A stretch of DNA of 64,000 nt from Eledone cirrhosa. Taxonomy: Eukaryota. The notes below the pieces were generated by a model. That model saw only the letters and a list, made by a program, of their open reading frames with translations. It was not told the DNA's origin and made no database searches. The stretch lies in the NCBI GenBank assembly GCA_964016885.1, contig OZ024756.1:40796001-40860000 (forward strand), in the 5' to 3' direction. This document shows, in pieces, positions 25,949-62,221 of this stretch. Numbering within the stretch: position 1 is the first letter of the stretch; each line of letters starts with the position of its first letter. Made by a program: the position numbers and the translations under genes.

Positions 25949-26089
25949 TTATTTGGGGGCCTCGTCTTCAGCCTCTGCCTCGCCTTCAGCCTCTTCAACC
26001 TCTTCAACAGCCGCTATTTCACTTTCATATTTCTCCGCATTGTCTATTGCATCTGCTTCATCAGCAATTACTGCTTCACCGCCATTCTC
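25949..26089 (-). CDS. IQ gene terminal exon (acidic tail)
   Basis: [52 protein letters not shown]; coding-like composition, phase 0. Confidence 0.75.
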   Translation of the reverse strand, partial: ENGGEAVIADEADAIDNAEKYESEIAAVEEVEEAEGEAEAEDEAPK

Positions 26090-29000
26090 CTAGGGTTACA
26101 GGTACAGATACCGTTCATATCAACCCAGGTGTTAATTGGATCAGTCAATGGAGTTTTTTAATCAGATGAAATAAAGAAAAAAGAAAAACAAAAGAAAATA
26201 ATTAGTTATGATTGGTTAGCAATTTTAATGTTAACACAAAACAAAAGTATTGTGTGTATGTATGTGTGTATATATATATATATATATGTGTGTGTGTATA
26301 TATGTATGTATATGTGTGTGTGTGTGTATATATATATACAGGGTGCGGACAATATTTGTTCGCAAGATTACTGTCTAGGAAAAAATAACACAGTAGTTTT
26401 ATTTCTTAAGATATATTTATCAAACTTGGGTCAGTTTGTCTTCATGACTTGTTCTTTCGATCTCACTTGATAAACCCGCCATTGGCTTTGATGATGGCCT
26501 CGGAACCGGCTATAGGCCTTCGTCACTGTCCCCCGACTTAGGCCTCTAAAGGCACTTGTGATCCTGGCCTTCAGATCGTCTTTCGTATTGCAGCTAGATC
26601 TGTTGGTTTCTCGTTCCACTGTGCCCCGCACAAAGAAGTTGAGGGGGTTGCAGTCAGGCGAGCTGGGAGGCCAGATGTCAGGTGAAGTGTGGGCGACGAA
26701 GTTCTCTGTCAGCCAGGCTTGGGTCTTTCGGCTGGTATGGCAAGGCGCTGAGTCTTGCTTCCACATGTACGGCCTACCTGCAGCTACCTGGTCGATCCAG
26801 GGCTTTACTACCTCGCTCAGAATGTGGATGTAGCCATTAGTGTTCAGCTTGAGGCTCTCGGGAAGAAGTGAGGTGGCATGACGTCACCTTGACTGCTGAC
26901 GACACCCAAGACCAATGTTGTCACTGGAAACTTTGTCTGCATGACTCTGGGCATGTCTCTGGATGAGACAGCGAGCCACCTGTTGTTCTGGGAGTTGATC
27001 TTCTGGTCTTGGCAGAAGTTTTTCTCATCGGAGAAAAACCACAGCATGTCTGGCTCCAGTGGGTGTTTCAACTTGTTGATCAGCTTCTTTGCGTGCTTCA
27101 GTCGCTTTTCTTGCATCGCCTTTGACAGAAATTGTCCTTTCCTCATCTTGTATGAAACGTAGCGAATGTCTTCATGAACCACCAGCCTAATGAGCTTTTC
27201 ATCCACGCCTTTCTCCCTTGCAATGGCACGCATCGACTTGCTAGGTTCATTGTTGATGATATCCTGAACTTCAGCGACGAACTCGGGCATTCTGAAGGCG
27301 TCAGATCGTCGATCATGTGTTTTCCTCTCTGATGTTGCTTTGTAGTTGAATCCTGAATCTTTCAATTCTTTTCTGACCTTTTCCACCATTCTCCTACTGA
27401 CGCTGAAAAAGTCTGAAATTTCCTTATTGGTCCTCCCGGCGCGGATTCCAAGAAGAACTCCGTGTCTCTTCCACAAATTTGGAGGCTCAAAATTATTCAT
27501 AATCAATTATTCTGAAAATAAATAATGGAAATATAGTCACTGTTTTTATGAAGACAAGAGTGACAACAGAAGTAAAAAAAATTTGCATAAAATTAGCAGT
27601 TGAAAATTGCAAACAAATATCGTCCACACCCTGTATATATATATATATATATATATATATATAGTGTGTGTGTATATATATATGTATGTATACGTATGTG
27701 TGTGTGTGTGTATATATATATATATATATATATATATAAAAGCATAGTAGTATAGTTTATATGAAGAATTGTGAGATGTGTAATTAAGTATGTATTGGGA
27801 AAGCCTGTACAAAAAAATGGCTTGTAAGAACAAGATTCTTCTATTTTTCTTCACTTGATAAAGAGTTTCTAAATTCGAAATATTCTGAAATTTAGGGTAA
27901 AAACTATTGTTTATCACTACTCTAGTTCCACTATAATATCTCTTATTATACCAGCTTTCCTAATACATTCTTAATATATAAGCATATATATATTTAAACA
28001 GATATATGTAAAATCAGATGTATGTATAAGTATATATCTGTTTGTAAGATATAGCAGCGTAGTGGATAAGAGTGTTGAAACTTTGTCAGTTGCAAGAAAA
28101 TTCAGTTTAAGAAGATGTGAGAGAAATCAACTGTTGAGTAGGACACCAGTCTACAGTAGACACACTTCACAGAAGATCTGCTACTTACCAACATTCCTAA
28201 CATTTAGGTAAACTAAACTGTAGATATTAAAGAGTACTAATCAAGTATGCTGAAATACCTGGAGTGGATTTCAGCTGGGTGTTCAATGCTTTTATAATTC
28301 TAACCAGATTTCAGATAATTTCTATGTATTCTATGTATTCTATGTATTCTATGTCTATTTTCGTTTTTTAATGAATAAATTGTTGCTCTAAAACAATTTT
28401 GATTTCATTTAATGTCATATTAAAATTAGAGAAGGATGAGAGATCATCTGTAAAATGGGCTGTATGATCTTTGAACAATCATTTTAGGGTTCTATGACAA
28501 AATAAGTTTGAGAATCACAACTCTGATGTAGCCTTTAATATGTGTTCATAAGATTAGTGAAGAGAGACAGAGAGAGAGAAGAAAATTAGCATATGACATC
28601 CCATCCTAGATGTTACCATTTCTATGCAGTCACTTGTCCTGCTAGAAATAGTAACCAAATCTCCCTCAAATAACACTCTACTGTATTGAGAAAGGAATAA
28701 CATATTGGATAACATAAATTTTAGATATTCTATGTGTAAGGAAAACAAAAAAAAGATGGGATAATCATAGCTTGAATACGTTTTATTATAGGTATGTTGA
28801 TAGGAGGCTAAACAACAGCTTAACAGCTACAAAAAGCTAATTTACACAGTGGCTAGCAAATGGACAAATATATATTTGAAAAGAAGAAAAAAACAACAGC
28901 AAACAAGAAAACATGCTAGCTAAAGATAGAGAACAGACGATACCAGAAATGATAATCATCACCAATTTAACAACATCAACAACACCAAAAAGGTATAGTT

Positions 29001-62000: not shown

Positions 62001-62221
62001 TAATTCAAAGAGCCAGTCTTGTCACATTCTGTGTCATGCCGAATCTCCCTGAGAACTACGTTAAAGGTACACATGTCTAGTTAACTGATTGTTGTTATTA
62101 CGATAATCTTATGTTGTTGTGTATAAGTAGTTGTGATTAATAAACATTAAATTAGAAATAATATTATTTATTTAAAAGTAATTTATCATCTGACCTGTTC
62201 TTGTATGTCGTCACCGTCATC
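25949..62221 (-). CDS. Large multi-IQ-motif (neurogranin/PEP-19/Sp17-like) protein with giant phospho-site repeat exons; 5'-incomplete gene span
   Basis: Six phase-0 exons join without stops (~1990 aa in the window): 62195-62221, 53925-54086, 46892-47458, 35200-38436, 31773-33605, 25949-26089. That they form one transcript is inferred. Confidence 0.7.
26339..27633 (-). mobile_element. Tc1/mariner DD37D (maT) transposon, full length, defective
   Basis: 27-bp TIRs CAGGGTGCGGACAATATTTGTTCGCAA (3 mismatches) in a TA context. Transposase split by a frameshift near 26850: [28 protein letters not shown]; 37 residues lie between the 2nd D and the third position (N here). Confidence 0.92.
30552..35400. 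repeat. Tandem duplication: ~30552-31960 vs ~33614-35385 (near-identical intron plus exon 3' end)
   Basis: AATTATTGTTATAAATAAGTAGTTTTAGC starts both copies; colinear with few differences apart from a 351-bp indel (34707-35057). Confidence 0.95.
31773..33605 (-). CDS. IQ gene giant repeat exon B (611 codons; duplicated 3' part of exon A)
   Basis: Open frame of [20 protein letters not shown] units ending in the same unique tail and donor as exon A; candidate acceptor TTCTATACAG at the duplication junction. Confidence 0.65.
35200..38436 (-). CDS. IQ gene giant repeat exon A (1079 codons)
   Basis: Acceptor CCCACAG|GAACTT, donor GCG|GTACTG; 13x 19-aa [19 protein letters not shown], then ~30 units of 20-21-aa [21 protein letters not shown]; no frameshift or stop. 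Confidence 0.82.
39222..39291 (+). ncRNA. Type I hammerhead-ribozyme-like motif with intact core
   Basis: Stem I TATTTTAT/ATAAAATA (8 bp), CTGATGA 39230-36, stem II GAACACAA/TTGTATTC (1 mismatch), GAAA, short stem III AT-GCAC-AT, ATA cleavage triplet ending at 39283. Confidence 0.68.
43544..43706. repeat. Foldback inverted repeat (44-bp perfect arms plus extension)
   Basis: TATTTAATTAGAAAGTAAACAATACAATATAACTACTCCATTAC pairs with GTAATGGAGTAGTTATATTGTATTGTTTACTTTCTAATTAAATA. Confidence 0.92.
44000..44385 (+). mobile_element. Degenerate RTE-clade LINE fragment
   Basis: Broken translation LEEFKYL...[14 protein letters not shown]...[14 protein letters not shown]...AAEMKFL...GITLLDRV. Confidence 0.7.
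44409..44587 (-). mobile_element. SINE family B
   Basis: Reverse complement of the 13663-13850 element. Confidence 0.85.
46892..47458 (-). CDS. IQ gene exon with IQ motifs 2 and 3
   Basis: ...[32 protein letters not shown]...[33 protein letters not shown]...; TTTTAG/GTATTG, 567 nt. Confidence 0.9.
47875..51220. repeat. 3.35-kb 44-bp satellite array (~76 copies), intronic
   Basis: Unit GATACAACAGTGAAGGGACAGTGATATATACAATACATAYATTT with recurring variants (ACTGCAGG, GATATAAC, CAGCGAT). Confidence 0.98.
52990..53145 (+). mobile_element. Retroposon family C 3' end with (GAT)n tail
   Basis: Close match to ~9262-9420. Confidence 0.75.
53925..54086 (-). CDS. IQ gene exon with IQ motif 1
   Basis: [62 protein letters not shown], 162 nt; absent from the ORF track. 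Confidence 0.88.
54472..55728 (+). mobile_element. Mariner (DD34D) transposon, mellifera-subfamily-like, full length, defective
   Basis: TA|TTGGGTYGGCAAGAAAGTAATTTC TIRs. Transposase pseudogene 54620-55653: [47 protein letters not shown], with stops and frameshifts. Confidence 0.94.
56100..56288 (+). mobile_element. SINE family B with TSD
   Basis: Flanked by ATTATTACTATCAG on both sides. Confidence 0.85.
56485..56730 (+). mobile_element. SINE family A
   Basis: Near-identical to 3648-3890. Confidence 0.87.
57390..57628 (-). mobile_element. Diverged CORE-like SINE
   Basis: Reverse complement contains GACACTTTATTTCACATTGCTCTAGTCTACTCAA and a tRNA-like head; 3' part related to ~61990-62075. 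Confidence 0.6.
60995..62077 (+). mobile_element. Cluster of three family-A-type SINEs with different 3' tails
   Basis: Heads at ~60995, ~61416 and ~61813 share GGTTAGAGCATT...GAGTTCAATTCT...CCTTGAGCAAGACACTTTATTTC; they diverge after the central domain. Confidence 0.8.
62195..62221 (-). CDS. IQ gene 27-nt micro-exon (DDGDDIQEQ)
   Basis: Pyrimidine tract ...TTCTCAG acceptor, GTCAGA donor, symmetric phase 0, acidic peptide. Confidence 0.6.

What the first reader, a model, noticed from the sequence alone, without database searches (positions are those of the whole stretch)
25949..62221. Giant calpacitin-like protein: multiple acidic-IQ motifs fused to a ~1700-aa disordered array of kinase sites
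Seen in the sequence: three IQ motifs, each preceded by an acidic (D)xDLxDP stretch, sit upstream of two huge repeat exons on the same strand, and all exons are phase 0. Known: this acidic-IQ arrangement characterises neurogranin, PEP-19/PCP4 and Sp17-type calmodulin buffers, which are small proteins. Inference: one transcript encodes a >1900-aa intrinsically disordered protein linking Ca2+/calmodulin binding to a tail with dozens of phosphorylatable repeats, like a neurofilament side-arm or phospho-tunable polymer brush. I do not recognise this architecture as a described gene.
Basis: partly seen in the sequence, partly recalled or inferred. Interest (0 to 1): 0.8.

Follow-up and report, generated by a model that had tools for sequence, protein, structure and literature searches.

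The report
Octopus SPA17 with optional giant phospho-tail
These exons are the back half of an octopus-type gene for SPA17, a known cilia and sperm protein with calmodulin-binding motifs; the spliced transcript seen skips the two huge repeat exons, which are likely added only in some transcripts as a predicted phosphorylatable disordered tail.

Summary
The exons are real, but the gene is not new and the giant protein is not the product that was seen. The window holds the 3' end of a 282-kb SPA17 (Sp17) gene. Its RIIa docking exon and four more IQ motifs lie upstream, and the best PDB hit is SPA17. An SPA17 start plus 5-18 IQ motifs is common in molluscs (74 of 120 homologs). In the one spliced run, the two-IQ exon joins the last exon directly and skips both repeat exons. 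A direct IQ-to-repeat junction was not seen. Indirect signs favour a minor inclusion form: the contig end is reproduced only if a repeat exon also splices to the last exon, and the repeats keep frame and avoid stops. Exon B shares a 1.2%-diverged tail-plus-intron duplicate with A and has a new acceptor, so A+B together is doubtful. The Ser/Arg/Glu/Pro tail (57 PKA-type sites) matched nothing in the searches run. Verdict: new variant of a known family, an optional predicted phospho-tail on an AKAP-docking calmodulin binder.

The parts
62195..62221 (-). 27-nt phase-0 exon (9 aa) of SPA17
   Evidence: AG/GT ends; joined to the 47458 exon in run X1
53925..54086 (-). Predicted cassette exon, 54 aa, one acidic-IQ motif; skipped in the X1 contig and absent from the Argonauta protein
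   Evidence: skipping; P0113
46892..47458 (-). Exon of 189 aa with two DIDLxDP-IQ motifs; both ends confirmed by a spliced contig
35200..38436 (-). Repeat exon A, 1079 aa: unique head, 13 near-identical 19-aa units with SP/TP sites, about 30 units of 19-21 aa, most with EEE and RRxS, 60-aa tail; optional
   Evidence: an X1 contig stops at 38437, one base outside the acceptor; skipped
33611..35199 (.). Intron copy 1 of the duplicated tail-plus-intron block; ends at the breakpoint just before B
   Evidence: 15 mismatches in 1218 aligned bases, gaps 2/351/6/10 against 30553-31772; only two copies found in G000
31773..33605 (-). Repeat exon B, 611 aa: degenerate units, then about 20 units of 18-20 aa, then the same 60-aa tail; acceptor is a Gln codon at the breakpoint; use unproven
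30549..31772 (.). Intron copy 2 of the duplicated block
25949..26089 (-). Last coding exon, 46 acidic aa + TAA; acceptor confirmed by a spliced contig

Best explanation
This is the 3' half of an octopod SPA17 gene (RIIa docking domain plus seven IQ motifs) whose observed transcript skips the two repeat exons; a minor, likely tissue-restricted isoform probably splices in exon A (perhaps also B) to add a predicted disordered 1,079-1,690-aa tail. Shown: gene identity, exon order, the skipping junction, frame constraint on the repeats. Inferred mechanism: the D/D domain dimerises (alone or with ROPN1L) and docks on an AKAP helix in the axoneme or sperm tail, as vertebrate SPA17 does (PMC8339350). 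The DIDLxDP-IQ motifs would hold calmodulin there and, like PEP-19, speed its Ca2+ exchange (PMC5122967). The optional tail alternates EEE and RRxS/K blocks. It would be a PKA/PKC (and, in the 19-aa block, proline-directed) substrate array tethered beside AKAP-bound kinase. Multisite phosphorylation would turn a near-neutral polyampholyte into an expanded anionic spacer or brush. The array appears selected for frame, length and charge pattern, not for exact residues.
For: RIIa exon: PF02197 E 1.2e-13; best three PDB hits are SPA17 (E 3e-16 to 8e-13) against 3e-7 for PKA-RII. Exons are collinear with the 510-aa Argonauta RIIa+6-IQ protein P0113, one exon 88% identical. Skipping junction in run X1. 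Of 15 transcript sets simulated with k=31, the observed contig (625 nt, 30 before and 28 after the exon) came out in 6; all 6 have A or B spliced to the last exon and no IQ-to-A junction, and none of the 7 sets without A/B reproduced it. Only 3 of 539 GT[AG] sites between the IQ and last exons have the needed xCG context: the A donor, the B donor and one in a dispersed repeat. An X1 contig on the A head ends at 38437. 6 of 6 distinct gaps among 66 aligned units are multiples of 3; no stop against about 6 expected in 61 units, P about 0.001. FoldIndex negative, and only 7 W/F/Y/C residues in 1690. Oyster Sp17 is high in male gonad, gill and palps (PMC3348941).
Against: No contig showing the IQ-to-A junction was seen. 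In the two simulated sets that contain it, the IQ contig would be cut to 599 nt, not 625, so it must be absent in this run or removed by graph cleaning. The A-head contig (depth 4.8) is hardly deeper than intronic pieces (2-4.1). The evidence is one run of unknown tissue, not on record as RNA, and contigs rather than reads. A SNP or A-to-I edit at letter 29 of the last exon (an A) could also end the contig there. No excess of synonymous change in the units (P 0.36-0.94). No homolog of exon A was found, and the Argonauta model lacks it. No kinase, calmodulin, AKAP or localisation data.
Confidence: 0.66

Rival explanations
1. The repeat exon is spliced to the last exon but in transcripts that lack the two-IQ exon: either an internal promoter (there is an ATG at codon 4 of A) giving a stand-alone repeat protein, or isoforms in which A replaces the two-IQ exon.
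For: The X1 contig runs unbroken across the IQ donor, which fits a graph with no IQ-to-A junction. A set with L002-to-A plus e9-to-A reproduces both observed contig ends. X1 pieces cover about 550 bases upstream of A (38422-38986).
Against: All exons are phase 0 and A lies directly after the IQ exon, so inclusion is the simplest reading. Intronic pieces of like depth also lie at 41075 and 46229-46644. Low-depth junctions can be removed by contig cleaning (recalled).
Confidence: 0.15
2. A and B are a codon-like minisatellite that is only rarely and non-functionally exonised; SPA17 here is an ordinary multi-IQ protein of a few hundred residues.
For: The seen transcript skips them. No synonymous bias. 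No homologs. A neighbouring satellite gives stop-free frames of over 1100 aa by chance.
Against: Units have diverged into several types yet keep one open frame with triplet-only gaps and no stops. A has a unique coding head and tail, phase-0 splice sites, and contig ends at both of its junction sides.
Confidence: 0.1
3. One reading: the main product is a >1900-aa neuronal calpacitin with a neurofilament-like side-arm, including both A and B.
For: Acidic-IQ motifs match PEP-19 in register. Atlas look-alikes of the IQ exon are named neuromodulin and igloo (0.89-0.90, weak). All exons are frame-compatible.
Against: The gene is SPA17 with an RIIa domain. The seen transcript skips A and B. B's acceptor is a breakpoint by-product with the weakest pyrimidine tract of the six (47% against 59-71%).
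Confidence: 0.06
4. (Compatible with the others.) B is an unspliced leftover, or the second haplotype wrongly placed in tandem; the real cassette is A alone.
For: The duplicated intron differs by only 1.23%, a level that alleles could show (typical heterozygosity recalled). B has a weak new acceptor.
Against: There is no N gap at the joint (the only N run is 94-293), and the joint is intron-to-mid-repeat, not a homologous overlap. B's units mostly group apart from A's, and its first 150 aa have no counterpart in A. This argues for a real rearrangement, but not for B being spliced in.
Confidence: 0.45

Closest known systems
SPA17 / sperm surface protein Sp17 (R2D2 clade of D/D proteins; PDB 7MY4, 8J07, 9FQR)
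   Same: N-terminal D/D domain including the family's extended start; best three PDB hits; only one SPA17-type exon among 4 RIIa matches in the genome, the others reading as PKA-R; IQ motifs C-terminal to it.
   Different: Vertebrate chains are 147-151 aa with one IQ motif (recalled). This gene has seven IQ motifs, many cassette exons and optional 1079/611-aa repeat exons.
Molluscan, annelid and echinoderm multi-IQ SPA17 proteins (Argonauta P0113, oyster P0034, scallop P0016, sea cucumber P0036)
   Same: SPA17 start plus 5-18 IQ motifs (median 7), mostly DIDLxDP-type, with many annotated isoforms, 420-1625 aa.
   Different: None of the 120 fetched homologs matches A or B (blastp E<=1e-3); their longest IQ-free stretch holds at most 6 basic kinase sites against 34 in A. 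They grow by adding IQ units or other tails, not a Ser/Arg array.
PEP-19/PCP4, neurogranin, neuromodulin, Drosophila igloo (acidic-IQ calmodulin modulators)
   Same: The acidic hydrophobic-plug-Pro segment before IQ aligns in register with PEP-19 residues 27-57 (PMC5122967 passages).
   Different: Those proteins have no D/D domain and are small or neuronal (recalled). The likeness is at motif level; this is not a member.
CABYR (mammalian D/D protein of the sperm fibrous sheath)
   Same: AKAP-binding D/D protein with several isoforms and many regulated Ser/Thr sites (PMC9583833, PMC8339350 passages): a functional precedent for D/D plus phospho-tail.
   Different: No IQ array or tandem repeat exon known to me (recalled); no sequence match to A/B found; the D/D here is SPA17-type.
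Neurofilament-H / squid NF220 side-arms (recalled)
   Same: Long disordered tail of repeated kinase sites with mixed charge.
   Different: No intermediate-filament rod in any exon found; no Pfam hit for A or B; sites are mainly RRxS, not KSP.

Membership tests
SPA17 (Sp17) | N-terminal RIIa D/D domain | tested here: met
   PF02197 51 bits, cut-off 22.4, at C17:41104047-41104200, same strand
SPA17 (Sp17) | D/D closer to SPA17 than to PKA-R or radial-spoke RIIa, with the extended N-terminus | tested here: met
   SPA17 E 3e-16/1e-13/8e-13 over residues 1-50; RSP7 2e-7, PKA-RII 3e-7 over about 8-50. No tree was built.
SPA17 (Sp17) | IQ motif(s) C-terminal to D/D in the same gene | tested here: met
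   Seven IQ motifs, collinear with Argonauta P0113. The RIIa-to-window link rests on collinearity and frame-compatible splice sites; RNA shows only three upstream letters.
SPA17 (Sp17) | AKAP binding, ROPN1L heterodimer, ciliary or flagellar location | not testable with these tools
   Known for vertebrate SPA17 (PMC8339350, PMC2727497 passages); inferred here
PEP-19/neurogranin calpacitins | Acidic hydrophobic-plug-Pro segment before IQ | tested here: met
   alignment, E 0.005
PEP-19/neurogranin calpacitins | Small stand-alone IQ protein without a folded domain | tested here: not met
   RIIa domain upstream; shortest predicted form about 370 aa
PEP-19/neurogranin calpacitins | Binds apo-calmodulin and alters Ca2+ kinetics | not testable with these tools
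   needs binding assays
Neurofilament H/NF220 | Intermediate-filament rod domain | tested here: not met
   No such Pfam hit in 7 exons or P0113; the L005, L009, L011 and 27-nt exons (under 30 aa each) were not scanned
Protein-coding cassette exon (A) | Frame kept under unit turnover | tested here: met
Protein-coding cassette exon (A) | Direct junction to IQ exon in RNA | tested here: inconclusive
   not seen in X1; A/B-to-last junction inferred

The most novel reading that the evidence does not exclude
In some tissue (likely sperm or ciliated cells) this octopod makes a 1,660-2,270-aa SPA17. It docks on an AKAP, carries up to seven calmodulins and extends a lineage-specific brush with 34-57 PKA-type sites, so a PKA substrate array sits on the same scaffold as PKA and cAMP and Ca2+ inputs meet on one molecule. 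The original single giant exon was recently split into A and B by a copy of its own donor and intron, a caught-in-the-act intron gain that would give three tail lengths.
Probability: 0.3. Interest if true: 0.65.

Novelty: new variant of a known kind. Interest (0 to 1): 0.4.

Why it matters
The core gene is ordinary for molluscs. The optional kilo-residue phospho-array on SPA17 had no match in the protein searches run here, and I found no description in nine literature searches. If expressed, it is a natural on/off test of what a phospho-tunable disordered tail does on an AKAP-anchored calmodulin binder, with short and long isoforms from one gene. It also shows how such tails arise and turn over (unit expansion under frame-only constraint) and how a giant exon can be split by a local duplication. 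If it is not expressed, the finding reduces to a routine SPA17 annotation.

Tried and rejected
Homolog searches with exon A: none at E<=0.001 among 7992 candidates of 592-1887 aa (residues 1-420) or 7966 candidates of 1890-5000 aa (weak evidence by the tool's own note). No usable Atlas hit, no Pfam hit, no blastp hit among the 120 fetched IQ homologs. B was not used as a database query. No Octopus-genus name stood among the 120 listed of 150 hits, so conservation of A in other octopods is untested. The whole-library HMMER job with the L002 exon was still queued at the end: no result. No RNA holder was listed as such; X1 is taken as RNA because its contig is spliced. Other copies in G000: the exon-A head and the IQ exon are single-copy; C5 matches are a stop-ridden satellite. 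Nei-Gojobori classes A20 and B19 were discarded (equal length, different gap pattern) and redone by gap class. Kinase-site enrichment over shuffles is not independent evidence, since units are copies; CK2 sites are below chance. Earlier findings: nothing. PMC11779644 does not mention SPA17. No fold or complex prediction was run: D/D and IQ-calmodulin are textbook and the tail is predicted disordered.
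Full report
Observation. The window is AT-rich animal DNA at G000:C17:40796001-40860000. An octopod origin is inferred from an exon 88% identical to Argonauta. The three acidic-IQ motifs, the two repeat frames and phase-0 boundaries for six exons are as described; the sum is 1988 aa, of which A is 1079 and B 611. A control warns against reading length as evidence: the 44-bp satellite at 47875-51220 is stop-free in all three minus frames.

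Identity of the gene. The two-IQ exon found 150 proteins of 332-2000 aa (best 120 listed). 74 of the 120 begin with an SPA17-type N-terminus and carry 5-18 IQ motifs (median 7) in 420-1625 aa. I fetched 200 kb upstream. Argonauta P0113 mapped, in order and on the same strand, to exons in L011, L009, L005 and L002 and then to the window. A Pfam RIIa search gave 4 matches in the genome, one at C17:41104051-41104158, minus strand; the other three read as PKA regulatory subunits (my reading of the translations). That exon's best three of 19 PDB hits are SPA17. It joins in frame to the L011 exon through a GC donor. The gene spans 282 kb, with seven IQ motifs. The 44 kb between the last fetched stretch and the RIIa locus was not read, but the two exons on either side are adjacent in Argonauta. 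The acidic segment aligns with PEP-19, in which such a segment speeds Ca2+ exchange on calmodulin (PMC5122967, passages). So the IQ part works like PEP-19 by inference, but the gene is SPA17.

What is transcribed. Four runs from one study hold the IQ exon. X2-X4 cover introns evenly. X1 covers exons and has four intronic bins of 30 at zero. In X1 a single 625-nt contig carries the 47458 exon with loose ends that match the 62221 exon upstream and the last exon downstream. This transcript skips the 54086 exon, A and B. Its three most upstream letters fit L005 (or L009), not L002, so the His-rich two-IQ exon is skipped too; the predicted product is about 370 aa. Two indirect signs point to some inclusion. 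First, in a k=31 simulation of 15 transcript sets the contig's exact ends came out in 6 sets, all with A or B spliced to the last exon, and in none of 7 without them. Unspliced intron or other exons give 626 nt; the two sets with IQ-to-A give 599 nt. A and B donors are 2 of only 3 xCG|GT[AG] sites among 539 in the interval. Second, an X1 contig on the head of A stops at 38437, one base outside its acceptor. Against: the IQ-to-A junction was not seen and should have split the contig unless cleaned away; that head contig is barely deeper than intronic pieces; an edit or SNP could also end the contig; and this is one run of unknown tissue. My odds (judgement): a repeat exon reaches the last exon in some mRNA about 0.85; with IQ exons in the same molecule about 0.65; A and B together about 0.3.

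The repeats. A has a 102-aa head, 13 near-identical 19-aa units with SP and TP, then 19-21-aa units built as EEE-PP-x-RRSS-x-K, and a 60-aa tail. B has degenerate units, 18-20-aa units and the same tail. I aligned 66 of 72 segments (heads, tails and two fused units left out): 6 of 6 distinct gaps are multiples of 3, against 2 of 4 in the duplicated intron. In 61 units of four gap classes about 6 stop-making variants were expected and none is a stop in a real unit (joint P about 0.001; approximate, because one variant scores as a stop only against the consensus codon). Synonymous changes are not in excess (P 0.36-0.94). Frame and openness are therefore constrained; residues drift. 27 of 44 A units and 15 of 22 B units keep a [RK][RK]x[ST] site. 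Net charge is -20 (A) and +31 (B), FoldIndex is negative, and S+T number 269 and 139. Phosphorylation is predicted from motifs only.

The duplication. The tail and following intron occur twice (5 mismatches in 180 coding bases; 15 in 1218 intronic), and nowhere else in G000. Copy 1 ends abruptly in the middle of a repeat unit, whose Gln codon supplies B's AG. B's units are mostly closer to each other than to A's, and the tail starts with a unit of B's type. The simplest history (inference): one giant exon, into which a copy of its own tail, donor and intron was placed, splitting it. The event is too recent for B's open frame to show current use. A haplotype mis-join is less likely (no gap, non-homologous joint) but was not tested on reads.

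Mechanism. Vertebrate SPA17 forms dimers and tetramers and binds AKAP18 at nanomolar affinity as a heterodimer with ROPN1L (PMC8339350, abstract and passages). It lies in the sperm fibrous sheath and ciliated cells and associates with AKAP3 (PMC2727497, passages). Oyster Sp17 is high in male gonad, gill and palps (PMC3348941, three passages); I did not check that this oyster clone is the multi-IQ gene. I infer an AKAP-docked, multi-calmodulin reservoir in cilia or flagella, with an optional charge-patterned tail that anchored PKA or PKC would phosphorylate to swell it as a spacer or brush. CABYR, a D/D protein with many regulated Ser/Thr sites in sperm (PMC9583833, passages), is a functional precedent. 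None of these steps was tested here.

Novelty. RIIa plus many acidic IQ motifs is already in the databases across molluscs, an annelid and an echinoderm. The Ser/Arg repeat cassette had no match. Nine literature searches (listings only, plus passages of the papers cited and of PMC11779644, PMC11202624 and PMC4383193, which added nothing) showed no description of multi-IQ invertebrate SPA17 or of this tail. Subscription papers and supplements were not seen. Conservation in other octopods remains open, as the whole-library search did not return. Verdict: new variant of a known kind; interest 0.4, rising to about 0.65 if the giant isoform is shown as protein.

Noticed in passing
window 3890-7400 (-): Exons of a seryl-tRNA synthetase gene, the downstream neighbour on the same strand (identification from recalled motifs).
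   Followed up: partly
window 47875-51220: 44-bp satellite, 76 copies, 96% matches, stop-free in all three minus frames (1129-1165 aa); used as a control.
   Followed up: partly
L023 1497 (C17:41104047): The RIIa exon appears to end at a GC donor; this keeps frame with the next exon.
   Followed up: partly
L002 6994-7461 (-): 156-aa exon with a poly-His tract and two IQ motifs, 88% identical to Argonauta over 121 aa; apparently skipped in the X1 contig.
   Followed up: partly
window 26431-27506 (-), 55072-55653 (+), 20225-21043 (+): Broken mariner/Tc1-like transposase frames and a reverse-transcriptase-like remnant (named from recall).
   Followed up: no
window 18034-18714 and 19094-19559: 47-bp and 25-bp minisatellites; the latter gives 250-aa frames in all three plus frames.
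   Followed up: no
P0016, P0020, P0057 and kin: Scallop and mussel SPA17 models carry another long C-terminal extension (PF06775 or PF04614 hits; P0016 ends in a CaaX-like motif): either real alternative tails or fused gene models.
   Followed up: no
G000:C5:59.3-60.2 Mb: Large satellite with weak translated likeness to the 19-aa unit but 3-7 stops per match.
   Followed up: no
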